64,000 nt of DNA from assembly GCA_011884725.1 (NCBI GenBank), contig GCA_011884725.1_3919.1. The stretch is one strand, 5' to 3'. The position numbers and the translations under genes are program-made. Below are positions 16,381 to 23,563 of this stretch, piece after piece. The notes under the pieces were generated by a model that was given only the letters and a program-made list of their open reading frames with translations, was not told where the DNA came from and did no database searches. Every line of letters begins with the position of its first letter. Position 1 is the first letter of the stretch. This stretch comes from a phage.

Positions 16381-17796
16381 ATGAGCGAATTATTTAAACA
16401 TGCGCACCTTCATGCAGGTCGAACTGAAAATGGTGCTGTAAACCATACTTCATCAATGTCTGCTCTTGTAGACTTTTACAAAGCTGCTGGTTCAAGCCGT
16501 AGCAATGTAGAAATCTTACCAGACCTGTTCTACAAAGCTTTGCGTGAGGATGTTGATGTTGCAGTTCGTATTTTACTGCATATGCGAGATGTACGAGAAG
16601 GTATGGGTGAGCGTAAAGCCTTCAGAACTGTTTTACTTCAAGCGATTGAAGACAAAGTTTTAGAGCCTACGCAGGTTCTTCGCATTATGGATAAGATTGC
16701 AGAACTTGGTCGTTTTGATGACTTCAAAATCTTTGTAGGTACTCGTTTCGAGACAGATGCCTTCAAGCATTTAGAAGCAGCATTACTAGACCCTGCAACA
16801 GCAGGTTTGGCAGCTAAGTGGTTACCACGAGTCAAACCACGTCATAAGCAGTTTGTAAAACGTTTCTGCAAGTTTGCCAACTTGAGCGAGAAAGAGTACC
16901 GCACACTGTTGTCTGCACTATCTGATACAGTTGAGCAAAAAATCTCTGCTAATGAGTTTGGTAAGATTGACTACAGTAAGATTCCTTCACTTGCTGCTGC
17001 ACGCTACCAAAAACTGTTTAACCGTAAAGATGGAGAGCGATACAAAGCTTACATCGAGTCCTTATCAAAGGGTGAGGCTAAGATTAATGCTGGTGCTGTT
17101 TACCCATACGATGTGATTAAATCTGTCAAGCATGGTAATGCAGATGTTGCTAATGAGCAGTGGAAAGCACTACCAAACTGGATGGCAGAAGGTGAAAACA
17201 TCTTGTGTATGTCTGATGTATCAAGTTCAATGTCTTGGGTGAATTTTGGCTCCATTACTGCTCTGGATATTGGTGTATCACTTGCCTTGTATGTAGCAGA
17301 ACGCAATACAGGCTGCTTTAAGAATGAGTTGATGGTTTATTCAACAAACCCTCACTTCATCGAACTGAGTGGTGATTTACGAAACCGTCATCGTCAGGTG
17401 ATGCGACACGTTGAATATGGCTCAACTAACTTACAAGCAGCTTTTGACCGCATTCTTGAAACAGGTAAAAGAAACAACTTGACTCAGAAAGATATGCCAA
17501 GTAAGCTTATCATCTTCTCCGATATGGAGTTCAATCAGGTTGATGGAGCTAACGGTCGTACAAACTTTGAAGCAATTCAGAGTAAGTACAAAAAAGCTGG
17601 ATATGAGATGCCACAACTGGTATTCTGGTACTTAGCAAACCGTAATGGTACTTGCGAAGTGTCTGTTAAGGATAACGGTGTAGCAATGGTATCTGGTTTC
17701 TCTCCAGCCACTTTAAAAGCTCTGCTTGGTGGTGAGAAGTTTGACCCAATCAGCGTAATGCTCAAAGCAGTAATGATTGACCGTTATATCTGGTAA
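16381..17796 (+). CDS. vWA-domain protein with helical N-domain (possible TROVE/Ro60-like architecture)
   Basis: 471 aa; C-terminal vWA with MIDAS-like DVSSSMS (DxSxS) and downstream T and D positions (IIFSDMEF); helical N-domain of about 270 aa; sits directly upstream of the tRNA array. Confidence 0.7.
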   Translation: MSELFKHAHLHAGRTENGAVNHTSSMSALVDFYKAAGSSRSNVEILPDLFYKALREDVDVAVRILLHMRDVREGMGERKAFRTVLLQAIEDKVLEPTQVLRIMDKIAELGRFDDFKIFVGTRFETDAFKHLEAALLDPATAGLAAKWLPRVKPRHKQFVKRFCKFANLSEKEYRTLLSALSDTVEQKISANEFGKIDYSKIPSLAAARYQKLFNRKDGERYKAYIESLSKGEAKINAGAVYPYDVIKSVKHGNADVANEQWKALPNWMAEGENILCMSDVSSSMSWVNFGSITALDIGVSLALYVAERNTGCFKNELMVYSTNPHFIELSGDLRNRHRQVMRHVEYGSTNLQAAFDRILETGKRNNLTQKDMPSKLIIFSDMEFNQVDGANGRTNFEAIQSKYKKAGYEMPQLVFWYLANRNGTCEVSVKDNGVAMVSGFSPATLKALLGGEKFDPISVMLKAVMIDRYIW

Positions 17797-17814
17797 AAAG
17801 TTTTAAAAAGGGTA

Positions 17815-17843
17815 TTGACAATGTGTTTAATACCCTTTAATAT
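17815..17843 (+). promoter_or_regulatory. promoter of tRNA array
   Basis: TTGACA (17815-17820), 17-nt spacer, TAATAT (17838-17843); a second TTGACA lies at 17906. Confidence 0.6.
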
Positions 17844-17961
17844 GTTCTACATAGAAACGAAATGAGAGCTTTTCTAAGATACTGAAAAATATTTTAAAAA
17901 AGTTCTTGACAACCACTAAAAAATAATGTTAAAGTGGTTACATAGAGTTTGAAAAGTTTAT

Positions 17962-18038
17962 CTCTGTTTAGCTCAGCTTGGTAGAGCGTTCCGTTTGGGG
18001 CGGTAAGGCCGGAGGTTCAAGTCCTCCAACAGAGACCA
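17962..18038 (+). tRNA. tRNA-Pro (anticodon TGG)
   Basis: 7-bp acceptor CTCTGTT/AACAGAG, T-arm GGAGGTTCAAGTCCTCC, anticodon loop TTTGGGG, encoded CCA. Confidence 0.75.
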
Positions 18039-18045
18039 AATTAAT

Positions 18046-18123
18046 GTTCCAGTAGACAAAATGGTAAAGTCACCACTCTTTCAAAGTGGATATCTGAGGG
18101 TTCAAATCCCTTCTGGAACGCCA
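18046..18123 (+). tRNA. tRNA-Glu (anticodon TTC)
   Basis: Acceptor GTTCCAG/CTGGAAC, anticodon stem CCACT/AGTGG, loop CTTTCAA, T-loop TTCAAAT, CCA. Confidence 0.75.
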
Positions 18124-18126
18124 GTT

Positions 18127-18205
18127 TTGACAGAAGACCAATTACAGCAAACTTAATCTTATTCATCTGAAGGTAAATCGGACAAAGAAGAGATTTGGTC
18201 TGGTC
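18127..18205 (+). ncRNA. inter-tRNA structured element E1
   Basis: CAGAAGACC-box, helix AGACCAA (18135-18141) / TTGGTCT (18195-18201), TTACAGCAAA box inside. Confidence 0.5.
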
Positions 18206-18214
18206 ATTAAGAAT

Positions 18215-18291
18215 TGCGGGTATAGAGAAAGGGCGTCTCACATGTCTCATTAGCATGGTATCGGCAGGTTCGACTCCTGCACCCGCCTCCA
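18215..18291 (+). tRNA. tRNA-Met-like (anticodon CAT) with 1:72 mismatch
   Basis: Anticodon stem CATGT/GCATG, loop CTCATTA, T-arm GCAGGTTCGACTCCTGC, 3' ACCCGCC-T-CCA; 5' end TGCGGGT leaves position 1 unpaired. Confidence 0.6.
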
Positions 18292-18294
18292 AAT

Positions 18295-18365
18295 TTACAG
18301 AAGACCGTTTACAGCAAAATTGAATGAAATTTTTAGCGGAAAAATTGAAAGATACGGTCTGGTAA
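18295..18365 (+). ncRNA. inter-tRNA structured element E2
   Basis: Helix AGACCGT (18302-18308) / ACGGTCT (18354-18360); compensatory to E1; TTACAGCAAAA box. Confidence 0.5.
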
Positions 18366-18375
18366 TACTAAACAT

Positions 18376-18449
18376 GGTTAGGAAGCACATAAGGTATGTG
18401 CGGTCGCCTGTTAAGCGAATGGCACAGGGTTCGAATCCCTGACTAACCG
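18376..18449 (+). tRNA. tRNA-Asn (anticodon GTT)
   Basis: Acceptor GGTTAGG, D-stem GCAC/GTGC, anticodon loop CTGTTAA, T-arm CAGGGTTCGAATCCCTG; no encoded CCA. Confidence 0.65.
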
Positions 18450-18461
18450 CAAAATTGAAAT

Positions 18462-18549
18462 GTGTCGTTATCCCGTAGATGGTAGCGGTGGGGACTGTAA
18501 ATCCCTTGTCATTGAGACTCGGTAGGTTCGACTCCTACACGGCACACCA
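18462..18549 (+). tRNA. tRNA-Tyr (anticodon GTA), long variable arm
   Basis: Acceptor GTGTCGT/ACGGCAC, anticodon loop CTGTAAA, long variable arm, T-arm GTAGGTTCGACTCCTAC, CCA. Confidence 0.7.
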
Positions 18550-18554
18550 ATAAA

Positions 18555-18631
18555 GGCTATGTAGTTTAACTGGAGAAAATACTCCCCTGTCACGGGAGAT
18601 GATGTGAGTTCAAGTCTCATCGTAGCCGCCA
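18555..18631 (+). tRNA. tRNA-Asp (anticodon GTC)
   Basis: Acceptor GGCTATG/CGTAGCC, anticodon stem CTCCC/GGGAG, loop CTGTCAC, T-loop TTCAAGT, CCA. Confidence 0.75.
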
Positions 18632-18685
18632 AATTATAATAAGTATTTCAAAATGATGTTTTGAGAGGGCTATTTAGCCCCTCCC

Positions 18686-18716
18686 TTAAAGAGTTCTTAC
18701 GAGTATTCTTTAAAGG
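18686..18716 (+). ncRNA. hairpin with conserved TTCTTACGAG loop, copy 1
   Basis: TTAAAGAGTTCTTACGAGTATTCTTTAAAGG; second copy at 22027-22056 has a different but still complementary stem. Confidence 0.45.
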
Positions 18717-18795
18717 AGCAGAAGACCAAATACAGCAAGAATGTATGATATTTTCAAGCCAATCCAATTTTGAAAAAATTTAAAACTTGGTCTGG
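18717..18795 (+). ncRNA. inter-tRNA structured element E3
   Basis: CAGAAGACC box, helix AGACCAA (18723-18729) / TTGGTCT (18787-18793), ATACAGCAAG box. Confidence 0.5.
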
Positions 18796-18804
18796 CTCAA
18801 CAAA

Positions 18805-18939
18805 TTTACAGAAGACCGTTTACAGCAAAACTTAAACAATCTATTTCTCGGTAAAGAAAAGGCGAAGGTTCGATTCCTTCACTCGGCAGATGTCGAGTTG
18901 GTGTAATGGTAGCACTTAAGATGATAAACAACGGTCTGG
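18805..18939 (+). ncRNA. element E4 enclosing a tRNA-like module
   Basis: Helix AGACCGTT (18813-18820) / AACGGTCT (18930-18937); inside: T-arm GAAGGTTCGATTCCTTC, hairpin ACTCGGC-AGAT-GTCGAGT, D-arm-like GTGTAATGGTAGCAC. The order is 3'-half before 5'-half. Confidence 0.45.
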
Positions 18940-18940
18940 T

Positions 18941-19084
18941 AATTATCTTTGTAGATAAGTTATTAAGCTTACCTGTGAGTATGCGACCACAAAGGGTGAA
19001 AGGGTAAATTCTAGATTTAAACCCAAAAAGGCACATCGCTACAGACCTTAAGCAAGTCTGGGTAGCTTATCTACAAAGATAATT
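18941..19084 (+). ncRNA. structured RNA closed by a 19-bp perfect helix
   Basis: AATTATCTTTGTAGATAAG (18941-18959) is the exact reverse complement of CTTATCTACAAAGATAATT (19066-19084); inner hairpins include CAGAC/GTCTG. Confidence 0.5.
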
Positions 19085-19088
19085 TAAT

Positions 19089-19164
19089 GGAAGTGTAGCA
19101 GAATGGTGATGCGGCAGACTTTTAATCTGACAGGCGATGGGTTCGAATCCCTCCACTTCTACCA
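19089..19164 (+). tRNA. tRNA-Lys (anticodon TTT)
   Basis: Acceptor GGAAGTG/CACTTCT (G1.U72), anticodon loop CTTTTAA, T-loop TTCGAAT (weak T-stem), CCA. Confidence 0.65.
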
Positions 19165-19168
19165 ATAT

Positions 19169-19245
19169 GGTTCAGTCGCAGATAAGGTAATGCAAGGGTC
19201 TCATAAGCCCTATGAATGTGGGTTCGATTCCCATCTGAACCTCCA
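19169..19245 (+). tRNA. tRNA with CAT anticodon (elongator Met or Ile2-type)
   Basis: Acceptor GGTTCAG/CTGAACC fully paired, anticodon stem AGGGT/GCCCT, loop CTCATAA, T-loop TTCGATT, CCA. Confidence 0.65.
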
Positions 19246-19246
19246 A

Positions 19247-19322
19247 GCTGGTATAGTTAAGAAGGTTATAACACTCCCCTGATAAGGGAACATCGGTGGT
19301 TCGATTCCACCTACCAGTACCA
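19247..19322 (+). tRNA. tRNA-Ile (anticodon GAT)
   Basis: Acceptor GCTGGTA/TACCAGT, anticodon loop CTGATAA, T-arm GGTGGTTCGATTCCACC, CCA. Confidence 0.7.
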
Positions 19323-19337
19323 ATTTCAATAAAGTTG

Positions 19338-19366
19338 TTGACATTGAGATGTGACTACTTTATAGT
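19338..19366 (+). promoter_or_regulatory. internal promoter within tRNA array
   Basis: TTGACA (19338-19343), 17-nt spacer, TATAGT (19361-19366). Confidence 0.6.
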
Positions 19367-19568
19367 AACCTTAGTTTTCGTTGCGTAGCGTCTATTTTGC
19401 AAATTTAAAATAAATGCAAACGACAATGTTTTTCTGGCAGTAGCTTGATAGGCTAAACACCAGTGAGGTCTTCCAATCCCTCATCAAAGAATTTGGCGTA
19501 CTCGCCCACGGTATGATTAATAAGGTGGGCATCTTTAAGGGCTTTCTAAGAGAGTCTTTAAAGATAAT

Positions 19569-19645
19569 GCACCCTTAGTTCAATTGGATAGAGCAACGGT
19601 CTTCTAAATCGTTAGTTACAGGTTCGAATCCTGTAGGGTGTACCA
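19569..19645 (+). tRNA. tRNA-Arg (anticodon TCT)
   Basis: Acceptor GCACCCT/AGGGTGT, D-arm TAGTTCAATTGGATAGAGC, anticodon loop CTTCTAA, T-loop TTCGAAT, CCA. Confidence 0.75.
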
Positions 19646-19787
19646 AATAGTTAGCAGATTACTTAGACGGCCTTAGCGGGTCTTCCTGTAGGGAGGTGGT
19701 CTGTATCTCATGTTTTCCAGAACATGTAAATAATCTGAGAAGAAGCTTGACAGTGTTGAGATAACAGGGTAAGCTTCGAATTATAAT

Positions 19788-19870
19788 ATGGGACGATGTT
19801 AAGACTCTAAGGCATGAGCAACGGCCTCCAAAACCGTTTCAAAGGGGTTCAACTCCTCCGTCCCATGCCA
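19788..19870 (+). tRNA. atypical tRNA (anticodon probably CCA, Trp?)
   Basis: Acceptor ATGGGAC/GTCCCAT, T-loop TTCAACT, CCA; anticodon stem AACGG/CCGTT encloses 9 nt (CCTCCAAAA); D region is 4-8 nt longer than usual. Confidence 0.45.
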
Positions 19871-19883
19871 AAGTCTTATTAGG

Positions 19884-19971
19884 GGTAGGTAGCGGCTAAT
19901 GGTAGCCAAACTGTCTTGAAAACAGTTGCCACTGTAGAGATACGGTGAGGGTTCGACTCCTTTACTTACCG
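19884..19971 (+). tRNA. tRNA-Ser (anticodon TGA), long variable arm
   Basis: Acceptor GGTAGGT/ACTTACC, anticodon stem ACTGT/ACAGT, loop CTTGAAA, long variable arm, T-loop TTCGACT. Confidence 0.65.
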
Positions 19972-20126
19972 CCTAATAAGATTTACTCCGTCCATGCTTG
20001 TTCGCATTGTCGGTTTATCCCTCGTGTATTGTCGTACACTGTCAAAGCACCTAGTAGGTGTCACGGAGAAGAGATAATATCAAGCTCTCCAAAGGTTCTA
20101 GTCACCGGATTAAACAAGACTATGCA

Positions 20127-20151
20127 AAGACCTATTTAGGTCTTTTTAGAG
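20127..20151 (+). terminator. intrinsic terminator inside tRNA array
   Basis: AAAGACC-TATTTA-GGTCTTT followed by TTTAG. Confidence 0.5.
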
Positions 20152-20227
20152 GGCTTCTAAGGTTATTAGTCGCTTGTTGTGGAACCTTGTTGCTTAGGTT
20201 CTTAGAAGTTCTCTAAAAAGATTTAAT

Positions 20228-20305
20228 GGGAGATTGACGGTAATTGGTAAACCTACCATCCTTAGAAGTTGGTGTTTGAGGGTTCGAATCCCTTGTCTCC
20301 TACCA
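20228..20305 (+). tRNA. tRNA, class I shape, anticodon TAG (Leu?)
   Basis: Acceptor GGGAGAT/GTCTCCT, anticodon loop CTTAGAA, 5-nt variable loop, T-loop TTCGAAT, A73, CCA. Confidence 0.5.
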
Positions 20306-20312
20306 AATTAAT

Positions 20313-20388
20313 GCAGGTGTAGCAAAATGGTTATGCGGCTGACTCTTAATCAGTAAGACGATGGGTTCAATTCCCTCCACCTGTACCA
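20313..20388 (+). tRNA. tRNA-Lys (anticodon CTT)
   Basis: Acceptor GCAGGTG/CACCTGT, anticodon stem GCTGA/TCAGT, loop CTCTTAA, T-loop TTCAATT, CCA. Confidence 0.6.
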
Positions 20389-20394
20389 AACATT

Positions 20395-20470
20395 GGGGAT
20401 GTAGTTTACATGGTTAAAACATAAGTTTTGCAAACTTAAGTACAGGGTTCAATTCCCTGCTTCTCCACCA
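20395..20470 (+). tRNA. tRNA-Cys (anticodon GCA)
   Basis: Anticodon stem AAGTT/AACTT, loop TTGCAAA, T-arm CAGGGTTCAATTCCCTG, CCA. Confidence 0.65.
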
Positions 20471-20476
20471 ATTAGT

Positions 20477-20551
20477 GCATCCATAGTTTAAACGGGAAAA
20501 TTACAGTCTTCCAAACTGAGGTTGAGGGTTCGATTCCCTCTGGATGCTCCA
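20477..20551 (+). tRNA. tRNA-Gly (anticodon TCC)
   Basis: Acceptor GCATCCA/TGGATGC, anticodon loop CTTCCAA, T-loop TTCGATT, CCA. Confidence 0.65.
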
Positions 20552-20557
20552 AACAAT

Positions 20558-20634
20558 GCTGCTTTCGTATAATTGGCTATTACACATCCCTTGTAAGGAT
20601 GGAAATGCAGGTTCGAGTCCTGTGAGCAGCACCA
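20558..20634 (+). tRNA. tRNA-Thr (anticodon TGT)
   Basis: Acceptor GCTGCTT/GAGCAGC, anticodon stem CATCC/GGATG, loop CTTGTAA, T-loop TTCGAGT, CCA. Confidence 0.7.
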
Positions 20635-20635
20635 A

Positions 20636-20730
20636 TTCAGAGGTCAAGTGAAAGACCGCTTTGAGTCAACTGAAGACCGTAACAAATACCACGGAGTTGA
20701 GTTAGCGGCACAACTTCAGACCTCTTTCAT
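20636..20730 (+). ncRNA. structured spacer element between tRNA-Thr and tRNA-Val
   Basis: Closing helix CAGAGGTC (20638-20645) / GACCTCTT (20722-20729); contains a GAAGACCGT box as in E2/E4; no T-loop. Confidence 0.4.
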
Positions 20731-20805
20731 ACTCGCTTAGTTTATATGGTAAAACATCACCCTTACAAGATGAAGAAAAAGGTTCAAGTCCTTTAGTGAG
20801 TACCA
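20731..20805 (+). tRNA. tRNA-Val (anticodon TAC)
   Basis: Acceptor ACTCGCT/AGTGAGT, anticodon loop CTTACAA, T-arm AAAGGTTCAAGTCCTTT, CCA. Confidence 0.6.
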
Positions 20806-20806
20806 T

Positions 20807-20884
20807 GTTCCAGTATCCCAATTGGCAGAGGATGCAAGCTCAAACCTTGTATTAGTGACGGTTCGAATCCGTCTTGGAACACCA
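20807..20884 (+). tRNA. tRNA, class I shape, anticodon CAA (Leu?)
   Basis: Acceptor GTTCCAG/TTGGAAC, anticodon stem GCAAG/CTTGT, loop CTCAAAC, T-arm GACGGTTCGAATCCGTC, A73, CCA. Confidence 0.5.
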
Positions 20885-20889
20885 ATTTT

Positions 20890-20965
20890 GCAGGATTAGT
20901 TCAAATGGAAAGAGCAACAGTCTACGAAGCTGTTAATAGGGGTTCGAATCCCTTATCCTGCGCCA
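20890..20965 (+). tRNA. tRNA-Arg (anticodon ACG)
   Basis: Acceptor GCAGGAT/ATCCTGC, D-stem GTTC/GAGC, anticodon stem ACAGT/GCTGT, loop CTACGAA, T-loop TTCGAAT, CCA. Confidence 0.75.
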
Positions 20966-20982
20966 GATAAAAAGGTGATACT

Positions 20983-21225
20983 ATGCAAACATTAACAGTA
21001 GTTGAACATGAAAACTGTGAGAGTATTGAGTTTGTCAGGGTCATTGGTGTTGAACACCACATTTTCTTAAAAGTGGGATACTTATGTGACCCCGCTAGAG
21101 TAGAAAGATTTATACGTGATTGTTTTGGTGGTAGACATCTGAAGAGTGTTATTTTTGAGACAGTTTTACCAGAAGGTTTAGAAACGAATAATAACATTTA
21201 CCTCCTTACGAGGATTAGACAATGA
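20983..21225 (+). CDS. hypothetical protein embedded in tRNA array
   Basis: 80-aa ORF; RBS AAAGGTGA 7 nt upstream of ATG. Confidence 0.5.
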   Translation: MQTLTVVEHENCESIEFVRVIGVEHHIFLKVGYLCDPARVERFIRDCFGGRHLKSVIFETVLPEGLETNNNIYLLTRIRQ

Positions 21226-21779
21226 GATACTTAAAGTATGCTTCATGGATTTTCTTAGCTTTGTTAGAGCCATTTGCAGCAATCTTAGCAGTTATCTTAG
21301 CACCTTTTGTAGTTCCATTCTACAGTGAGAAGAAAGGACACTTACCTTTCGGGTTCAGATGGATGGAGACATATGACAACCCAATTGATGGTGATGAAGG
21401 TCACGTTAAAAGATGGGCTAATATTAGATGGATTGGTAAACTAGGTGTCTACATGCAAAGAGTCGGATGGCTCTGGAGAAACAAAGCTTATAACTTCTCT
21501 TACCATGTATTAGGAAGAGATGTAAGAGATGTTACTAAGTGGAAAGGTAATATCAACGTAAGTTCTAACCCTGAAGATAATCAGACTGGTTATCTCCTAA
21601 TGTGGAACAGTAATGCTTGGGGATTATTCGCTTTTATCCCATCAATTAAAGTCTTCGGTAAACAGTTTTACTGGAGAATTTATGTTGGATGGAAACTTAA
21701 AAGTGTTGTCCCAGAAGAAAGAGCATTCTCAAGGGAAAGAGTTATGTTGGCATTCTTTATTCATCCACTGAGAAAGTAA
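21222..21779 (+). CDS. hypothetical membrane protein embedded in tRNA array
   Basis: 185 aa; N-terminal TM segment (WIFLALLEPFAAILAVILAPFVVPF); start overlaps previous stop; RBS GAGGA. Confidence 0.6.
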   Translation: MRYLKYASWIFLALLEPFAAILAVILAPFVVPFYSEKKGHLPFGFRWMETYDNPIDGDEGHVKRWANIRWIGKLGVYMQRVGWLWRNKAYNFSYHVLGRDVRDVTKWKGNINVSSNPEDNQTGYLLMWNSNAWGLFAFIPSIKVFGKQFYWRIYVGWKLKSVVPEERAFSRERVMLAFFIHPLRK

Positions 21780-21787
21780 AGATTTAA

Positions 21788-21863
21788 AGGGGATTAGTTT
21801 ACAAGGTTAAAACCTCGGTCTTTGAAATCGAAGAAGTTGGTTCAATTCCAACATCCCCCGCCA
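21788..21863 (+). tRNA. tRNA-Gln (anticodon TTG)
   Basis: Anticodon stem TCGGT/ATCGA, loop CTTTGAA, T-arm GTTGGTTCAATTCCAAC, 3' ATCCCCC-G-CCA; position 1 (A) unpaired with C72. Confidence 0.6.
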
Positions 21864-21865
21864 AT

Positions 21866-21944
21866 GCTCCATTACTCCAATTGGCAGAGAGGCCAGACTT
21901 AAAATCTGTGTTATGTATCGGTTCGAATCCGATATGGAGTACCA
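21866..21944 (+). tRNA. tRNA, class I shape, anticodon TAA (Leu?)
   Basis: Acceptor GCTCCAT/ATGGAGT, anticodon loop CTTAAAA, T-arm ATCGGTTCGAATCCGAT, A73, CCA. Confidence 0.5.
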
Positions 21945-21949
21945 AATTT

Positions 21950-22025
21950 AGCGGTATAGCATAACTGGCAATGCAGCAGTCTCTGAAGCTGTCCTATTAA
22001 GGTTCAAATCCTTATGCCGCTGCCA
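21950..22025 (+). tRNA. tRNA-Gln (anticodon CTG)
   Basis: Acceptor AGCGGTA/TGCCGCT, D-stem GCAT/ATGC, anticodon stem GCAGT/GCTGT, loop CTCTGAA, T-loop TTCAAAT, CCA. Confidence 0.6.
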
Positions 22026-22026
22026 C

Positions 22027-22056
22027 TTCTAAGGATTCTTACGAGAGTCCTTAAAT
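22027..22056 (+). ncRNA. hairpin with conserved TTCTTACGAG loop, copy 2
   Basis: TTCTAAGGATTCTTACGAGAGTCCTTAAATG; stem TAAGGATTC/GAGTCCTTA. Confidence 0.45.
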
Positions 22057-22132
22057 GTGGCCTTATCATAAATGGTAATGACCCATGCTGTGAACATGGT
22101 CTATACGGGTTCAAATCCCGTAGGTCACCCCA
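22057..22132 (+). tRNA. tRNA-His (anticodon GTG)
   Basis: Acceptor GTGGCCT/AGGTCAC, anticodon stem CCATG/CATGG, loop CTGTGAA, T-arm ACGGGTTCAAATCCCGT, CCA. Confidence 0.7.
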
Positions 22133-22138
22133 ATTTAT

Positions 22139-22214
22139 AGTCCAAGTAGCTTATATGGTTAAAGCGCGTGTCTGAAAAACATGAGAAGAGGGTTCAAATC
22201 CCACTGGACTACCA
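22139..22214 (+). tRNA. tRNA-Phe (anticodon GAA)
   Basis: Acceptor AGTCCAA/CTGGACT, anticodon stem CGTGT/ACATG, loop CTGAAAA, T-loop TTCAAAT (short T-stem), CCA. Confidence 0.6.
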
Positions 22215-22230
22215 ATTTCAAAGGTGCTTA

Positions 22231-22965
22231 ATGAAAGAGATGACAGAACAAGGTAAGGAGATTTTCAATCTCTTAAAAACCGGTAAAGGGTTTTCTAACC
22301 CCCTTATTACTGGTGCAGCAGTTCTCGGTGGAACCGTAGCTGCCTCTACATCACTTGTAAGCTCTATTAGCTCTGTATCAGACCCTACAGTAAAGGATAA
22401 GCTTGTTGCTGCTGGACTTACAACAGTTCTGCTTAACAGCTTTACCACGAGTCTGACAAGCACTACATCAACTACCAAAACACTAACAGATTACGGTCAA
22501 AAGTCCATTGATGAGTTTTCATCACGTATGCAGGTAGCAAAAGGTTACTCTAATGTTATGGGTGCAGCAGGTGAACAAGTTGGCTGTACACCATTTAGTG
22601 GTATTATGGGTGTTGCTACAGAGTATGGTCAAAAAACTATTGATACGATTAACAGTGTACTAGATAGTGTTAATGGTGTGTTAAGTGACTTACAAGATGC
22701 TATTGACAAAGGTCTTGATACTATTTCTGATTTAGCTGAGCAAGCTGTTAGTAAGATTAATGAAGGTATTTCAAAAATTACAGCTTATGCAGATGAAGTT
22801 GTGCAGATGATTGAAGAAGAAGCTGCTCTTATTGCAGAGTACCTTAAAACGAATATCAATGGGTTCTTAGCAGGTATCTTACCAGACTGGTTTGATGATG
22901 CTTGTAAAACTGGTGTAATTGACACTATTGCAACACCAGAAATGAAGAACGCATTACAGAAATAA
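22231..22965 (+). CDS. hypothetical protein (Ser/Thr-rich N-half, helical C-half)
   Basis: Listed ORF starts at 22168 inside tRNA-Phe; in-frame ATG at 22231 with RBS AAAGG chosen. Confidence 0.55.
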   Translation: MKEMTEQGKEIFNLLKTGKGFSNPLITGAAVLGGTVAASTSLVSSISSVSDPTVKDKLVAAGLTTVLLNSFTTSLTSTTSTTKTLTDYGQKSIDEFSSRMQVAKGYSNVMGAAGEQVGCTPFSGIMGVATEYGQKTIDTINSVLDSVNGVLSDLQDAIDKGLDTISDLAEQAVSKINEGISKITAYADEVVQMIEEEAALIAEYLKTNINGFLAGILPDWFDDACKTGVIDTIATPEMKNALQK

Positions 22966-22967
22966 AT

Positions 22968-23060
22968 GGAAGATTAACCCTAAAAGGTAAGGGAGCAGTT
23001 TGCTAAACTGCCAGTAGCTGAGAAATCGGTGTACCAGTTCAAGTCTGGTATCTTCCTCCA
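22968..23060 (+). tRNA. tRNA-Ser (anticodon GCT), long variable arm
   Basis: Acceptor GGAAGAT/ATCTTCC, D-stem CCC/GGG, anticodon stem GCAGT/ACTGC, loop TTGCTAA, long variable arm, T-arm ACCAGTTCAAGTCTGGT, CCA. Confidence 0.7.
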
Positions 23061-23064
23061 ATTT

Positions 23065-23140
23065 GAATCCGTGACAGAAACGGCTATGTGCCTGTCTGCA
23101 AAACAGGTTTATAAGGGTTCGAGTCCCTTCGGATTCTCCA
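23065..23140 (+). tRNA. tRNA with GCA anticodon (second Cys-like)
   Basis: Acceptor GAATCCG/CGGATTC, anticodon stem CCTGT/ACAGG, loop CTGCAAA, T-arm AAGGGTTCGAGTCCCTT, CCA; atypical D-arm. Confidence 0.5.
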
Positions 23141-23177
23141 AGTTATTTTACTCTCTCTCAATTAAAATAATAATAAT

Positions 23178-23237
23178 GCCCTGCTATAAGTATTCTTCCT
23201 TTCGCTACCGAAGAGTATTTTTAGACAGGGCTTTTTT
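23178..23237 (+). terminator. terminator after tRNA array
   Basis: GCCCTG .. CAGGGC followed by TTTTTT. Confidence 0.5.
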
Positions 23238-23303
23238 ACAGAGTTATACTTTATAGGAAGACTTATACAGTATGTCTCTGACGTACATTGTGGTTTCTCC
23301 TTG

Positions 23304-23331
23304 ACGGTCTCTGTGCCGTCTTTTTTAAGGG
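23304..23331 (+). terminator. intrinsic terminator
   Basis: GACGG-TCTCTGTG-CCGTC followed by TTTTTT. Confidence 0.55.
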
Positions 23332-23362
23332 GAAACATGATTAACTATTTGGAGAAAACATA

Positions 23363-23563
23363 ATGAGCGAGACCGTTTATAAAGAACTTTATGAAGCTAA
23401 TAAAAAGCTAGAATTTATGCAGAATACTATCATGGCAATTGCAGACAGATTGTCTGTAGCAACAGGTATTGATATTAAAGAAGCATCTATGGATGCACTT
23501 CTTGATGCTGTTGATGCAAAGTTCGAAGTTAAGAAAGAAGAGACTGCTACAGACTCTGAATAA
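23363..23563 (+). CDS. hypothetical small protein upstream of terminase
   Basis: 66-aa acidic ORF with RBS GGAGAAAACATAATG. Confidence 0.5.
   Translation: MSETVYKELYEANKKLEFMQNTIMAIADRLSVATGIDIKEASMDALLDAVDAKFEVKKEETATDSE

What the first reader, a model, noticed from the sequence alone, without database searches (positions are those of the whole stretch)
17962..23140. Large tRNA array with unusual members
About 27 tRNA genes were folded by eye. Three tRNAs with Leu anticodons (TAG, CAA, TAA) appear to have class I shape (short variable arm) although bacterial tRNA-Leu is class II; all three keep A73. Two tRNAs have 1:72 mismatches (the CAT tRNA at 18215 and Gln-TTG at 21788). There are two CAT and two GCA tRNAs, and no tRNA-Ala was found. 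A phage-encoded isoacceptor set of this size could compensate codon usage or replace host tRNAs that are cleaved during infection.
Basis: partly seen in the sequence, partly recalled or inferred. Interest (0 to 1): 0.55.

Follow-up and report, generated by a model that had tools for sequence, protein, structure and literature searches.

The report
Phage tRNA array with armless tRNA-Leu
This is the known tRNA gene cluster of a Felix O1-like phage. Its three leucine tRNAs really do lack the long extra arm that bacterial leucine tRNAs carry, a trait that turns out to be common in phages, and small Ro60-associated Y-like RNAs lie between the tRNA genes.

Summary
The window comes from a Felixounavirus (95-97% identical to E. 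coli phages Ro111lw, typing phage 1 and wV8). The array is real and already annotated in hundreds of genomes.

**tRNA content.** ARAGORN finds 26 tRNAs. A 27th, atypical tRNA-Trp(CCA)-like gene at 19788-19870 is supported by covariation.

- All three Leu-anticodon tRNAs are class I-shaped (75-76 nt, variable loop of 4-7 nt) and carry A73.
- There are two CAT tRNAs.
- Two tRNAs have 1:72 mismatches.

tRNA-Ala(TGC) is present, and there is only one GCA tRNA.

**The armless Leu tRNAs.**
- They keep every E. coli LeuRS identity element I could check.
- Their cloverleaf covaries strongly.
- Two of them are identical in phage REP10.
- Both tRNA-Leu genes of the T5-like phage OSYSP have the same armless shape, and an OSYSP tRNA-Leu already decodes as leucine in engineered E. 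coli.
- Armless Leu tRNAs make up roughly a third to a half of the Leu tRNAs in small phage samples chosen without regard to Leu shape.

**The 1:72 mismatches.** The mismatched CAT tRNA looks like an initiator. The mismatched Gln tRNA fits GlnRS rules.

**Found beyond the brief.** The gene upstream has a Ro60 fold, and four YrlA/Y-like RNAs are embedded in the array.

**Verdict.** Ordinary in function (decoder supply) and moderately interesting in structure.

The parts
16381..17796 (+). Ro60-like RNA-binding protein gene (471 aa; DUF2828 + DUF7788) immediately upstream of the array
   Evidence: Pfam and PHROG hits. The AF2 model has pLDDT 86, and its top 11 Foldseek PDB hits are all Ro60/TROVE. 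tblastn gives E 2e-72 to the mycobacteriophage 'Ro-like RNA binding protein'.
17962..18038 (+). tRNA-Pro(TGG)
   Evidence: ARAGORN; Rfam 57.7 bits
18046..18123 (+). tRNA-Glu(TTC)
18128..18208 (+). Y-like RNA copy 1. Closing helix AGACCAA/TTGGTCT, with the single-stranded motif TTACAGCAA.
18215..18291 (+). Initiator-like tRNA(CAT). It has U1.C72, the acceptor sequence G2C3G4G5G6 as in E. coli tRNA-fMet, A11:U24, U37 and U73.
   Evidence: ARAGORN. The family is conserved in Moogle, P778, L010 and OSYSP. The Rfam tRNA model does not detect it.
18295..18367 (+). Y-like RNA copy 2 (AGACCGT/ACGGTCT + TTACAGCAA)
18376..18450 (+). tRNA-Asn(GTT); CCA is not encoded
18462..18549 (+). tRNA-Tyr(GTA), class II (long variable arm kept)
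18555..18631 (+). tRNA-Asp(GTC)
18716..18800 (+). Y-like RNA copy 3 (AGACCAA/TTGGTCT + ATACAGCAA)
18806..18944 (+). Y-like RNA copy 4, of YrlA type. A bulged closing helix encloses V, T (GAAGG-TTCGATT-CCTTC), AS (ACTCGGC-agat-GTCGAGT) and D arms.
   Evidence: The MFE fold is. The AS stem is fully compensated in phage Moogle. A mycobacteriophage RNA with the same layout matches Rfam YrlA below its gathering score.
19089..19164 (+). tRNA-Lys(TTT)
19169..19245 (+). tRNA-Met(CAT), elongator-like (G1-C72, U73)
   Evidence: ATA makes up only 3% of Ile codons, which argues against a tRNA-Ile2 role.
19247..19322 (+). tRNA-Ile(GAT)
19338..19366 (+). Promoter-like site (TTGACA-17-TATAGT, 11 of 12) inside the array. 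Function is inferred only.
   Evidence: A promoter is annotated at the same place in phage ASO1B.
19569..19645 (+). tRNA-Arg(TCT)
19788..19870 (+). Atypical tRNA-Trp(CCA)-like gene. It has A1-U72, G73, an encoded CCA, a 10-nt connector (GATGTTAAGA) before a 3-bp D stem, and a C.A mismatch closing the anticodon loop.
   Evidence: ARAGORN calls it only in relaxed mitochondrial mode. Homologues exist in Moogle, P778 and L010. 97.5% of cells pair and 8 of 16 pairs show compensatory changes.
19884..19973 (+). tRNA-Ser(TGA), class II. It is 100% identical to the phage REP10 gene.
   Evidence: REP Felixounaviruses infect Syn61d3 by expressing this tRNA.
20228..20305 (+). tRNA-Leu(TAG), class I-shaped. 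5-nt variable region, G1.U72, A73, A37.
   Evidence: It is 81% identical to OSYSP Leu(TAG).
20313..20388 (+). tRNA-Lys(CTT)
20395..20470 (+). tRNA-Ala(TGC) with G3.U70.
20477..20551 (+). tRNA-Gly(TCC)
20558..20634 (+). tRNA-Thr(TGT)
20731..20805 (+). tRNA-Val(TAC)
20807..20884 (+). tRNA-Leu(CAA), class I-shaped. 5-6-nt variable region, A73.
   Evidence: It is 100% identical in REP10.
20890..20965 (+). tRNA-Arg(ACG)
20983..21779 (+). Two small ORFs inside the array: an 80-aa protein, and a 185-aa DUF7338 protein that begins at 21222.
21788..21863 (+). tRNA-Gln(TTG) with A1.C72, G73, G2-C71, G3-C70 and G10
21866..21944 (+). tRNA-Leu(TAA), class I-shaped. 7-nt variable region, G1.U72, A73.
   Evidence: It is at least 99% identical in 216 phage records.
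21950..22025 (+). tRNA-Gln(CTG)
22057..22132 (+). tRNA-His(GTG). It has C73 but T at position -1, so no G-1 is encoded.
22139..22214 (+). tRNA-Phe(GAA)
22231..22965 (+). ORF of 244 aa (DUF7217) inside the array
22968..23060 (+). tRNA-Ser(GCT), class II
23065..23140 (+). tRNA-Cys(GCA)

Best explanation
The region is the tRNA gene cluster of a Felix O1-like myovirus. It holds 26 canonical tRNAs and one atypical tRNA-Trp-like gene, all on one strand. I infer that they are transcribed as polycistronic precursors from promoter-like sites at about 17815, 17906 and 19338, and that host RNases then process them.

The three leucine tRNAs are genuine 'type I' (armless) tRNA-Leu. They have lost the long variable arm but keep the leucine-type D arm: a 3-bp stem and a loop with A14 A15 U16 U17 G18 G19 N A20a. 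They also keep U8, U48, the T-loop partners and A73. These are the elements that E. coli LeuRS reads.

I infer that host LeuRS charges them with leucine and that they decode UUA/UUG and CUA (possibly other CUN codons). The AT-rich phage uses these codons far more than its host does. Only Leu could lose the arm, because SerRS needs the arm and the phage's tRNA-Tyr keeps it.

The CAT tRNA with the 1:72 mismatch is an initiator-type tRNA. The 1:72 mismatch in tRNA-Gln(UUG) suits GlnRS, which has to open that pair.

**Shown here:** gene content, cloverleaf shapes, covariation and conservation.
**Inferred:** charging, decoding and transcription.
For: **Array and its identity**
- The array is found by ARAGORN and Rfam.
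- It is 95-97% identical to Felixounavirus genomes that carry the same tRNA annotation.

**Armless shape of the Leu tRNAs**
- ARAGORN draws variable loops of 4-7 nt.
- An alignment of 12 armless Leu tRNAs from six phage lineages (A2) was tested against a cloverleaf with no variable arm. 97.1% of cells pair, 18 of 20 pairs change on both sides, 0 of 500 shuffles reach this, and slid controls give 39-47% pairing.
- U8, A14, U16, U17, G18, G19, A20a, U48, the T-loop residues and A73 are invariant in those 12 sequences, and A15 is present in at least 90% of them.

**Why leucylation is likely**
- The review PMC9976931 says E. coli tRNA-Leu identity rests on A73, A15-U48, G18G19 and A20a. It does not rest on the anticodon or the arm, and arm-deleted variants stay active.
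- Phage OSYSP has only two tRNA-Leu genes in its whole genome, and both are 77-nt armless forms.
- An OSYSP tRNA-Leu carrying a CGA anticodon makes E. coli read TCG as leucine (PMC13596443).
- The window's Leu(TAG) is 81% identical to OSYSP Leu(TAG).
- The phage's Ser and Tyr tRNAs keep their long arms.

**Evidence that the array works in vivo**
- The window's Ser(TGA), Leu(CAA) and Leu(TAA) genes are 100% identical to those of REP10.
- REP10 is one of the Felixounaviruses that infect the recoded strain Syn61d3 by expressing their tRNA-Ser(UGA).

**Codon usage.** TTA is 28% of Leu codons, CTA 12%, CTG 14%, and AGA is 44% of Arg codons.

**Initiator reading of CAT-18215.** It has a 1:72 mismatch, GCGGG at positions 2-6 and A11:U24, and these features are conserved in four other phage lineages.
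Against: - No expression, charging or modification data exist for these exact Leu tRNAs.
- A 2019 study found that E. coli LeuRS could not charge the type I tRNA-Leu(CAA) of Streptomyces coelicolor, and stated that EcLeuRS charges only type II tRNA-Leu (PMC6614811). Efficient charging therefore cannot be taken for granted.
- Leu(TAG) has A37 where CUN-reading tRNA-Leu normally has G37. It also has an irregular D-stem region.
- The initiator-like tRNA lacks the three consecutive G:C pairs in the anticodon stem and has U73 and U37.
- In phage Bas63, tRNA genes were mostly dispensable on laboratory strains, so any benefit is conditional.
- My E. coli codon frequencies come from memory, not from a tool.
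Confidence: 0.8

Rival explanations
1. The array exists mainly as an anti-defence reserve, and arm loss is itself an adaptation. Phage tRNAs replace host tRNAs that defence nucleases or nucleotidyltransferases destroy. Deleting the variable arm makes tRNA-Leu invisible to enzymes that recognise or cut the long arm of class II tRNAs.
For: [quoted passage not shown] T5 tRNA-Tyr escapes through its different variable loop (PMC13096335 and PMC11555353).
- The abortive-infection toxin AbiEii and MenT3 appear to prefer class II tRNAs (bioRxiv 10.64898/2026.01.19.700257).
- Armless Leu tRNAs are common in phages: short:long is 11:9 and 4:7 in loci chosen without regard to Leu shape. They were absent (0:14) from bacterial loci chosen in the same way.
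- Phage tRNAs were dispensable on laboratory hosts, which fits a conditional role.
Against: - No defence enzyme is known that targets the variable arm of tRNA-Leu.
- The codon-usage fit is good without invoking defence.
- 19 viral loci carry both armless and armed Leu tRNAs.
- Free-living Actinomycetota also carry type I tRNA-Leu (PMC6614811). Arm loss therefore does not need a phage-specific pressure.
Confidence: 0.15
2. The armless 'Leu' tRNAs are not leucine acceptors. They could be decaying pseudogenes, decoys, or tRNAs charged by another synthetase, which would recode UUR/CUA codons.
For: - EcLeuRS failed on a Streptomyces type I tRNA-Leu.
- Rfam tRNA scores for the three are among the lowest in the array, at 40-47.5 bits.
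- Leu(TAG) has an irregular D stem and A37.
Against: - Leu(TAA) is at least 99% identical in 216 of 264 matching records.
- Covariation across lineages shows purifying selection on the fold.
- Every LeuRS identity element is invariant or nearly invariant in the 12 aligned sequences.
- A73 occurs in 144 of 146 distinct armless viral Leu tRNAs.
- An OSYSP armless tRNA-Leu inserts leucine in vivo.
Confidence: 0.04
3. The CAT tRNA at 18215 is tRNA-Ile2 (lysidine-modified, reading AUA) or an ordinary elongator tRNA-Met, not an initiator.
For: - Phage CAT tRNAs are often tRNA-Ile2 misannotated as Met (my own knowledge).
- This tRNA lacks the three G:C pairs and the A73 of E. coli tRNA-fMet.
Against: - ATA makes up only 3% of Ile codons in the window's ORFs.
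- The 1:72 mismatch, G2:C71, C3:G70, G4:C69 and A11:U24 are initiator hallmarks (my own knowledge of formyltransferase determinants). They are conserved in five phage lineages.
Confidence: 0.2

Closest known systems
tRNA gene clusters of Felix O1-like (Felixounavirus) and T5-like (Tequintavirus) phages
   Same: The gene order and sequences match: 95-97% identity to many Felixounavirus genomes, with the same tRNA annotation. The T5-like phage OSYSP has the same armless tRNA-Leu design and the same initiator-like CAT tRNA.
   Different: Nothing essential differs; this is a member of the group. GenBank annotations vary and contain errors. The Trp-like gene is not annotated as Trp (REP10 has a 'tRNA-OTHER' nearby). 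The region of Y-like copies 3-4 is called 'tRNA-Thr-GGT' (129 nt) in ASO1B.
Type I (short variable loop) tRNA-Leu of Streptomyces coelicolor and of animal mitochondria
   Same: Leu anticodon, no long variable arm, and an otherwise normal cloverleaf (PMC6614811; PMC9976931).
   Different: The phage forms keep A73 and the full E. coli-type D-loop identity set, and they must be charged by an enterobacterial LeuRS. In contrast, EcLeuRS did not charge the Streptomyces tRNA, and A73 is not an identity element in that system. The phage genes sit in viral tRNA arrays, not in cellular or organellar genomes.
Minimalist, arm-deleted E. coli tRNA-Leu variants used in identity studies
   Same: They lack the variable arm and remain substrates as long as A73 and the D/T-loop tertiary contacts are intact (summarised in PMC9976931).
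   Different: Those are laboratory constructs. Here the same solution is found in nature and is conserved across phage lineages.
YrlA / bacterial Y RNAs encoded next to Ro60 (Rsr) orthologues
   Same: They lie on the same strand next to a Ro60-like gene. Copy 4 has the YrlA layout: a closing helix, then V, T, closed acceptor-like (AS) and D arms. The same closing helix and CAGCAA motif occur in the mycobacteriophage Kingsolomon RNA that gives a sub-threshold match to Rfam YrlA.
   Different: Rfam YrlA (RF02553) gives no match in the window at E up to 5. There are four copies, three of them without a tRNA-like domain, and they are interleaved with real tRNA genes. The partner protein is typed by Pfam as DUF2828/DUF7788, not TROVE.

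Membership tests
Felixounavirus tRNA cluster | High nucleotide identity and the same gene order (RNA-binding protein gene, then the tRNA array, then terminase) as in sequenced Felixounaviruses | tested here: met
   Megablast gives 95-97% identity over 100% of 17800-23300 to many Felixounavirus records. The annotated order is the same in typing phage 1, ASO1B, Felix O1 and REP10.
Type I (armless) tRNA-Leu | Leu anticodon combined with a short variable region that cannot form a stem-loop | tested here: met
   The anticodons are TAG, CAA and TAA. The variable regions are 4-7 nt, and each tRNA is 75-76 nt without CCA.
Type I (armless) tRNA-Leu | The four-arm cloverleaf is maintained by selection | tested here: met
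   In 12 sequences, 97.1% of cells pair, 18 of 20 pairs show changes on both sides, and 0 of 500 shuffles reach this.
Substrate of E. coli LeuRS (leucine identity set) | A73, U8-A14, A15-U48, G18G19, A20a and the T-loop partners U54, U55, C56 and A58 | tested here: met
   All of these are invariant in the 12 aligned armless Leu tRNAs, apart from A15, which is present in at least 90% of them; all are present in the three window genes. The identity set is taken from PMC9976931.
Substrate of E. coli LeuRS (leucine identity set) | Actual leucylation by the host enzyme | not testable with these tools
   The support is indirect: an OSYSP armless tRNA-Leu decodes as Leu in E. coli. The caution is that EcLeuRS failed on the Streptomyces type I tRNA-Leu.
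Bacterial initiator tRNA-fMet (for CAT tRNA 18215) | Unpaired 1:72 plus G2:C71, C3:G70 and G4:C69 (formyltransferase determinants), and A11:U24 | tested here: met
   It has U1.C72, the acceptor sequence GCGGG at positions 2-6 paired to CCCGC, and the D stem G10-C25/A11-U24. The features are conserved in Moogle, P778, L010 and OSYSP. The list of determinants comes from my own knowledge.
Bacterial initiator tRNA-fMet (for CAT tRNA 18215) | Three consecutive G:C pairs at 29-31:39-41, and A73 | tested here: not met
   The anticodon stem reads C-G, A-U, U-A, G-C, U.G. The discriminator is U, and position 37 is U. I therefore call it initiator-like, not a proven tRNA-fMet.
tRNA-Gln identity set (for Gln-TTG 21788) | G73, a weak or open 1:72 pair, G2:C71, G3:C70, G10 and U35 | tested here: met
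   It has A1.C72, G73, G2-C71, G3-C70, G10 and the anticodon UUG. The identity set comes from my own knowledge of GlnRS recognition.
tRNA-Trp (for 19788-19870) | Anticodon CCA in a 7-nt loop with U33, G73, and a cloverleaf supported by covariation | tested here: met
   The loop is CUCCAAA, G73 and A1-U72 are present, 97.5% of cells pair, and 8 of 16 pairs are compensatory across five sequences.
tRNA-Trp (for 19788-19870) | Canonical tRNA geometry: 2 nt between the acceptor and D stems, and scores above detection thresholds | tested here: not met
   The connector is 10 nt. ARAGORN does not call the gene in bacterial mode. The best Rfam match is tRNA-Sec at 23 bits, E 0.41. Its L010 homologue scores 28.7 bits against a threshold of 29.
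YrlA / Y RNA | Encoded near a Ro60 orthologue on the same strand | tested here: met
   The four copies begin 332-1010 nt downstream of the Ro60-like gene on the same strand. The helix + CAGCAA motif lies within -700/+1500 nt of the gene in 48 of 77 diverse loci. Its density is 0.44 per kb near the gene against 0.09 per kb elsewhere.
YrlA / Y RNA | tRNA-like domain with T, closed acceptor-like (AS) and D arms, inside a closing helix | tested here: met
   This holds for copy 4 only. The AS stem ACTCGGC/GTCGAGT becomes ACCCTTC/GAAGGGT in Moogle, with three pairs changed on both sides.
YrlA / Y RNA | Match to the curated Rfam model RF02553 | tested here: not met
   There is no match in 17700-23400 at E up to 5. 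As a control, the mycobacteriophage Kingsolomon YrlA scores 37.9 bits, E 6.6e-5, which is itself below the gathering score of 69.
YrlA / Y RNA | Physical binding to the Ro60-like protein | not testable with these tools
   This needs RIP-seq or gel-shift experiments.
Ro60 / TROVE proteins (for ORF 16381-17796) | Ro60 fold: a HEAT-repeat ring plus a vWA domain | tested here: met
   The top 11 Foldseek PDB hits are Ro60/TROVE entries, including the Thermus phage phiLo Ro60, with E 1e-8 to 1e-5 and TM 0.42-0.66.
Ro60 / TROVE proteins (for ORF 16381-17796) | Pfam TROVE domain (PF05731) hit by sequence | tested here: not met
   Pfam reports only DUF2828 and DUF7788. phmmer against PDB sequences finds nothing.

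The most novel reading that the evidence does not exclude
Loss of the long variable arm from tRNA-Leu could be a recurrent phage counter-defence. Bacterial LeuRS, unlike SerRS, does not need the arm, so phages can delete it. That would make their leucine decoders immune to host enzymes that recognise or cut the variable arm of class II tRNAs (PtuAB-type nucleases, AbiEii/MenT-type nucleotidyltransferases, or systems not yet described). The Ro60-like protein and its four Y-like tRNA mimics in the same operon could be a second tRNA-centred anti-defence module; the Bas63 orthologue is reported to counter the Ppl system.
Probability: 0.15. Interest if true: 0.75.

Novelty: new member of a known kind. 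Interest (0 to 1): 0.45.

Why it matters
**A textbook rule needs qualifying.** Textbooks and a 2023 identity review say that tRNA-Leu carries a long variable arm everywhere except animal mitochondria. This window, and the small surveys made here, show that armless tRNA-Leu is routine in phage tRNA arrays, including coliphages.

**A stated limit of E. coli LeuRS needs re-examination.** E. coli LeuRS must therefore handle natural type I tRNA-Leu, contrary to a statement in a 2019 enzymology paper.

**Practical consequences.**
- tRNA annotation: isotype models expect an arm.
- Synthetic biology: compact phage tRNA-Leu scaffolds are already used to swap codon meaning.
- Phage-host conflict: defence systems are now known to attack variable loops.

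**The embedded Y-like RNAs.** They give concrete candidates for the RNA partners of a phage Ro60-like anti-defence protein. Until now these partners had only been guessed at.

Tried and rejected
1. **Permuted or split tRNA at 18860-18925.** I first read this as a circularly permuted tRNA. I rejected that in favour of a YrlA-type tRNA mimic, after finding the Ro60-like neighbour and the same layout in a mycobacteriophage RNA that matches Rfam YrlA below threshold.
2. **Small ribozymes flanking tRNAs** (theta/HDV-like, hammerhead, twister). Rfam at E up to 5 found none in 17700-23400.
3. **tmRNA-like RNA.** The weak hits at 19264-19568 (15.7-29.2 bits against a threshold of 47) were treated as noise.
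4. **tRNA-Ile2 reading of the CAT tRNAs.** This is disfavoured because ATA is only 3% of Ile codons.
5. **An extended D helix (GTT/AAC) in the Trp-like gene.** It is not conserved in phage P778, so I rejected it.
6. **The IUPAC pattern for armless Leu tRNAs.** It also matches tRNA-Lys(CTT), which gave most of the bacterial hits and 18 viral ones. Raw hit counts were discarded, and only tRNAs typed by ARAGORN were counted.
7. **Papers I could not reach.** The Nyerges et al. 2023 paper and its preprint are not held. What I say about REP phages and the OSYSP tRNA comes from later papers that cite them. The supplements of Chen et al. 2014 are not held either, so I cannot say whether Felix O1-like phages were in their list of 22 phages.
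8. **Prior descriptions of armless phage tRNA-Leu.** Several of my ten literature searches were aimed at this point and found none. The older T5 tRNA literature is not in the library, so priority cannot be excluded.
9. **Sequence search of the Ro60-like protein against PDB.** It found nothing; only the fold comparison worked.

Full report
**What is there.** ARAGORN finds 26 tRNA genes between 17962 and 23140, all on the + strand. Rfam's tRNA model independently finds 24 of them, with E-values from 1e-12 to 4e-3 in the window-wide search. It misses the CAT tRNA at 18215 entirely, and it matches tRNA-Tyr only weakly, through the tRNA-Sec model. The region is 95-97% identical over its whole length to many Felix O1-like phages (Felixounavirus: Ro111lw, typing phage 1, wV8, the KhF phages and others), and 311 phage records match it. 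Their GenBank annotations list the same tRNAs in the same order. An 'RNA-binding protein' gene lies upstream and the large terminase gene lies downstream. The array itself is therefore real, far beyond chance, and already known.

- The three Leu-anticodon tRNAs are 78, 78 and 79 nt including CCA. ARAGORN draws variable regions of 4-7 nt with no stem, and all three have A73. This is correct.
- There are two CAT tRNAs, at 18215 and 19169. This is correct.
- The 1:72 mismatches are correct: U1.C72 in CAT-18215 and A1.C72 in Gln(TTG) 21788.
- 'No tRNA-Ala' and 'two GCA tRNAs' are wrong. The gene at 20395-20470 is tRNA-Ala(TGC) with the G3.U70 pair, and only 23065-23140 carries GCA.
- 'About 27' is right in the end. 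An unannotated tRNA-like gene with anticodon CCA lies at 19788-19870 (see below).
- CCA is encoded in 24 of the 26 genes. Asn ends gCAA and Ser(TGA) ends gCCt.

**The armless leucine tRNAs.** I collected class I-length Leu tRNAs from five other phages or viral contigs: Citrobacter phage Moogle, Yersinia phage P778, the T5-like phage OSYSP, and the viral contigs L010, L026 and L064. I aligned them with the three window genes (12 sequences in all, pairwise identity 44-81%).
- Against a cloverleaf with no variable arm, 97.1% of cells form pairs and 18 of 20 pairs show changes on both sides.
- None of 500 shuffles reaches these values, and sliding the 3' partners drops pairing to 39-47%.
- The fold is therefore maintained by selection. 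These are not decaying genes.
- The following are invariant in all 12: U8, A14, U16, U17, G18, G19, A20a, U48, the T loop (U54 U55 C56 ... A58) and A73. A15 is present in at least 90% of them.
- The D arm is the leucine type, with a 3-bp stem and the loop AAUUGG(C/U)A(N)A.

According to the 2023 identity review, E. coli tRNA-Leu identity rests on A73, the A15-U48 pair, G18G19, A20a and the D/T-loop contacts. It does not rest on the anticodon or the long arm, and variants lacking the arm remain active (PMC9976931). SerRS, by contrast, depends on the arm. Here Ser (90 and 93 nt) and Tyr (88 nt) keep theirs.

**Indirect experimental support for leucylation.**
- The T5-like phage OSYSP (MF402939) has only two tRNA-Leu genes in its whole genome, and both are 77-nt armless forms.
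- A 'bacteriophage-derived (MF402939.1) tRNA-Leu(CGA)' is the tRNA used to make recoded E. coli read TCG as leucine (PMC13596443).
- The window's Leu(TAG) is 81% identical to OSYSP Leu(TAG).
- The window's Ser(TGA), Leu(CAA) and Leu(TAA) are 100% identical to those of phage REP10. REP10 is one of eight Felixounaviruses that infect Syn61d3 by expressing their own tRNA-Ser(UGA) (PMC12269064 and PMC13596443). The array is therefore expressed and functional in vivo.

The main caveat is a 2019 study. In it, E. coli LeuRS did not charge the type I tRNA-Leu(CAA) of Streptomyces coelicolor, and the authors state that EcLeuRS charges only type II tRNA-Leu (PMC6614811). That tRNA belongs to a system with different identity rules, in which A73 is not used. 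Even so, efficiency for the phage tRNAs has to be measured.

**How general is it?**
- A pattern scan of viral contigs followed by ARAGORN typing gave 146 distinct Leu-anticodon tRNAs of 73-77 nt (counted through N73). Of these, 144 have A73.
- In the same loci, Ser tRNAs are 81-94 nt and Tyr tRNAs are mostly 78-90 nt.
- In loci chosen without regard to Leu shape, armless:armed counts were 11:9 (loci picked through a tRNA-Lys match) and 4:7 (loci picked through the Ro60-like protein). The equivalent bacterial loci gave 0:14.
- Sixteen bacterial loci, many from Actinomycetota (Gordonia, Nocardia, Mycobacterium, Rhodococcus and others), carry mostly solitary type I tRNA-Leu genes, chiefly with anticodon UAA. 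This fits the Streptomyces report.
- I found no paper in the searchable library that describes armless tRNA-Leu in phages. The older T5 tRNA literature is not held, so priority cannot be excluded.

**What the array most likely does.** ORFs in the window (38.9% G+C) use TTA for 28% of Leu codons, CTT for 27%, TTG for 14%, CTG for 14% and CTA for 12%. AGA accounts for 44% of Arg codons, and A-ending codons dominate in most four-codon boxes. The array supplies mostly U34 tRNAs for exactly these codons, including Leu(UAA), Leu(CAA), Leu(UAG) and Arg(UCU). From my own knowledge, E. coli uses CTG for about half of Leu codons and rarely uses CTA or AGA. Codon-supply compensation is thus the best-supported function.

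A defence-related role is plausible but untested here.
- The abortive-infection toxin AbiEii seems to prefer class II tRNAs.
- Bas63 tRNAs are mostly dispensable on laboratory strains.

Whether arm loss itself is an escape from arm-directed enzymes is the most novel reading left open. I give it about 15%.

**The two 1:72 mismatches.**
- CAT-18215 has U1.C72, G2C3G4G5G6 paired as in E. coli tRNA-fMet, and A11:U24. These are the formyltransferase and initiator hallmarks (my own knowledge).
- It lacks the three G:C pairs of the anticodon stem and has U73 and U37.
- Homologues in Moogle (U1.C72), P778 (A1.A72), L010 (U1-A72) and OSYSP (U1.U72) share GCGGG at positions 2-6. All but OSYSP share the loop CUCAUUA.
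- ATA is rare in the phage ORFs (3% of Ile codons), so a tRNA-Ile2 role is unlikely. I read this gene as an initiator-type tRNA with non-canonical features.
- Gln(TTG) has A1.C72, G73, G2-C71, G3-C70 and G10. This is the GlnRS identity set, in which the first pair must open (my own knowledge). The mismatch is conserved in Moogle.

**The 27th gene.** Positions 19788-19870 fold as a cloverleaf with the following features:
- anticodon loop CUCCAAA, identical to that of E. coli tRNA-Trp (from memory);
- A1-U72, G73 and an encoded CCA;
- a C.A mismatch closing the anticodon loop;
- a 10-nt connector (GATGTTAAGA) between the acceptor stem and a 3-bp D stem.

Bacterial-mode ARAGORN and Rfam do not call it. 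Relaxed mitochondrial-mode ARAGORN calls it Trp(CCA). Homologues in other Felixounaviruses, Moogle, P778 and L010 give 97.5% paired cells, with 8 of 16 pairs changed on both sides. With it, the array has a decoder for all 20 amino acids.

**Beyond the brief: Ro60 and Y-like RNAs.**
- The 471-aa ORF just upstream (16381-17796) hits Pfam DUF2828 and DUF7788. Its AlphaFold model (pLDDT 86) matches Ro60/TROVE structures in the top 11 Foldseek hits.
- It is 34% identical (E 2e-72) to mycobacteriophage 'Ro-like RNA binding proteins'.
- A 2024 preprint reports the Ro60-like fold of the Bas63 orthologue (gp130, a counter of the Ppl defence). Its authors only speculate that some neighbouring 'tRNAs' might be Y RNAs.
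- In the gaps of the array I found four copies of one element, at 18128-18208, 18295-18367, 18716-18800 and 18806-18944. Each has a closing helix AGACCnn/nnGGTCU whose inner pairs covary between copies, followed by the single-stranded motif UUACAGCAA.
- Copy 4 encloses V, T, closed acceptor-like (AS) and D arms, which is the YrlA architecture. Its AS stem is rebuilt with compensatory changes in Moogle.
- The same design occurs in P778 and L010. It occurs three times downstream of the Ro-like gene of mycobacteriophage Kingsolomon, where Rfam's YrlA model matches the middle copy below its gathering score.
- Across 77 diverse phage loci that carry the protein, a helix + CAGCAA motif lies next to the gene in 48. 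It is five times denser there than elsewhere. It also has conserved features that my search did not impose: A-G-G at the helix start and a G after the 3' strand.
- Rfam YrlA does not hit the window, so these are divergent members of the family.
- One GenBank record calls the region of copies 3-4 a 129-nt 'tRNA-Thr-GGT'.

**Verdict.** The array is a known Felixounavirus feature and works as a decoder supply. The shape is under selection and is explicable from LeuRS biology. It is also much more widespread in phages than the standard account of tRNA-Leu suggests. It is a new member of a known kind (type I tRNA-Leu) rather than a new kind of molecule.

Noticed in passing
window 16381-17796: The gene just upstream of the array encodes a protein with a Ro60/TROVE + vWA fold (Pfam DUF2828 + DUF7788). 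Homologues are widespread in large, tRNA-rich phages: Vibrio, Aeromonas, Listeria, Staphylococcus and mycobacteriophages (710 phage records).
   Followed up: yes
window 18128-18208, 18295-18367, 18716-18800, 18806-18944: Four Y-RNA-like elements sit between tRNA genes. Each has a closing helix AGACCnn/nnGGTCT followed by UUACAGCAA, and the fourth is a YrlA-type tRNA mimic. The helix + CAGCAA motif lies next to the Ro60-like gene in 48 of 77 diverse phage loci.
   Followed up: yes
window 19788-19870: An unannotated, atypical tRNA-Trp(CCA)-like gene with a 10-nt connector before the D stem. It is conserved with compensatory changes in Moogle, Yersinia phage P778 and contig L010.
   Followed up: yes
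window 22056-22132: tRNA-His has C73 but T at position -1, so the G-1 that bacterial HisRS normally needs is not encoded. Moogle and L010 are the same (T at -1 with C73); P778 also has T at -1 but U73. The Felix O1 record flags this gene as a pseudogene.
   Followed up: partly
window 20228-20305: Armless Leu(TAG) tRNAs (window, OSYSP, P778, L010, L064) have A37, whereas armed phage Leu(TAG) tRNAs (L047, L049) have G37. This suggests the armless CUN reader derives from a UUR-type tRNA and would not receive m1G37.
   Followed up: no
window 19871-19883 / 19972-19984, and 18450, 19973: tRNA-Ser(TGA) is flanked by a 13-nt inverted repeat that would extend its acceptor stem in the precursor. Ser(TGA) and Asn are the only two tRNAs without a complete encoded CCA.
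   Followed up: no
window 18941-18962/19063-19084; 20136-20161/20201-20226; 18681-18718; 19531-19565; 22026-22056: Long inverted repeats (22 nt at 95% and 26 nt at 85% complementarity) enclose 100 and 39 nt in the array's gaps. There are also recurring short hairpins with loops like TTCTTACGAG. They could be processing sites or further small RNAs, and P778 has similar hairpins.
   Followed up: no
L002 1425-1553 (phage ASO1B); L211 8173-8258 and 9170-9251 (REP10): GenBank annotations in this genus contain doubtful tRNA calls. A 129-nt 'tRNA-Thr-GGT' covers the region of Y-like copies 3-4. REP10 lists a 'tRNA-Thr_CGT' where the window has Asp, and a 'tRNA-OTHER'.
   Followed up: partly
L214, L218, L225, L233, L260 and others (bacterial genomes): Mostly solitary type I (74-nt) tRNA-Leu genes, chiefly with anticodon UAA, occur in Gordonia, Herbiconiux, Nocardia, Mycobacterium, Rhodococcus, Arthrobacter-group and other genomes. 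Their D arm (AGCCCAATTGGCAGAGGC) is close to those of the window's Leu(CAA) and Moogle's Leu(TAG).
   Followed up: partly
L088 3960-4230 (Mycobacterium phage Kingsolomon): Three tandem Y-like RNAs follow the Ro-like gene, each with a GGAC.../...GUCCAG helix and a CAGCAA motif. Rfam YrlA matches only the middle one, and below its gathering score.
   Followed up: partly
window 20983-21225, 21222-21779, 22231-22965: Three protein genes are embedded in the array: an 80-aa protein (phrog_14202), a 185-aa DUF7338 protein and a 244-aa DUF7217 protein. Their functions are unknown. They are annotated in other Felixounaviruses, and P778 has ORFs at the corresponding places.
   Followed up: no
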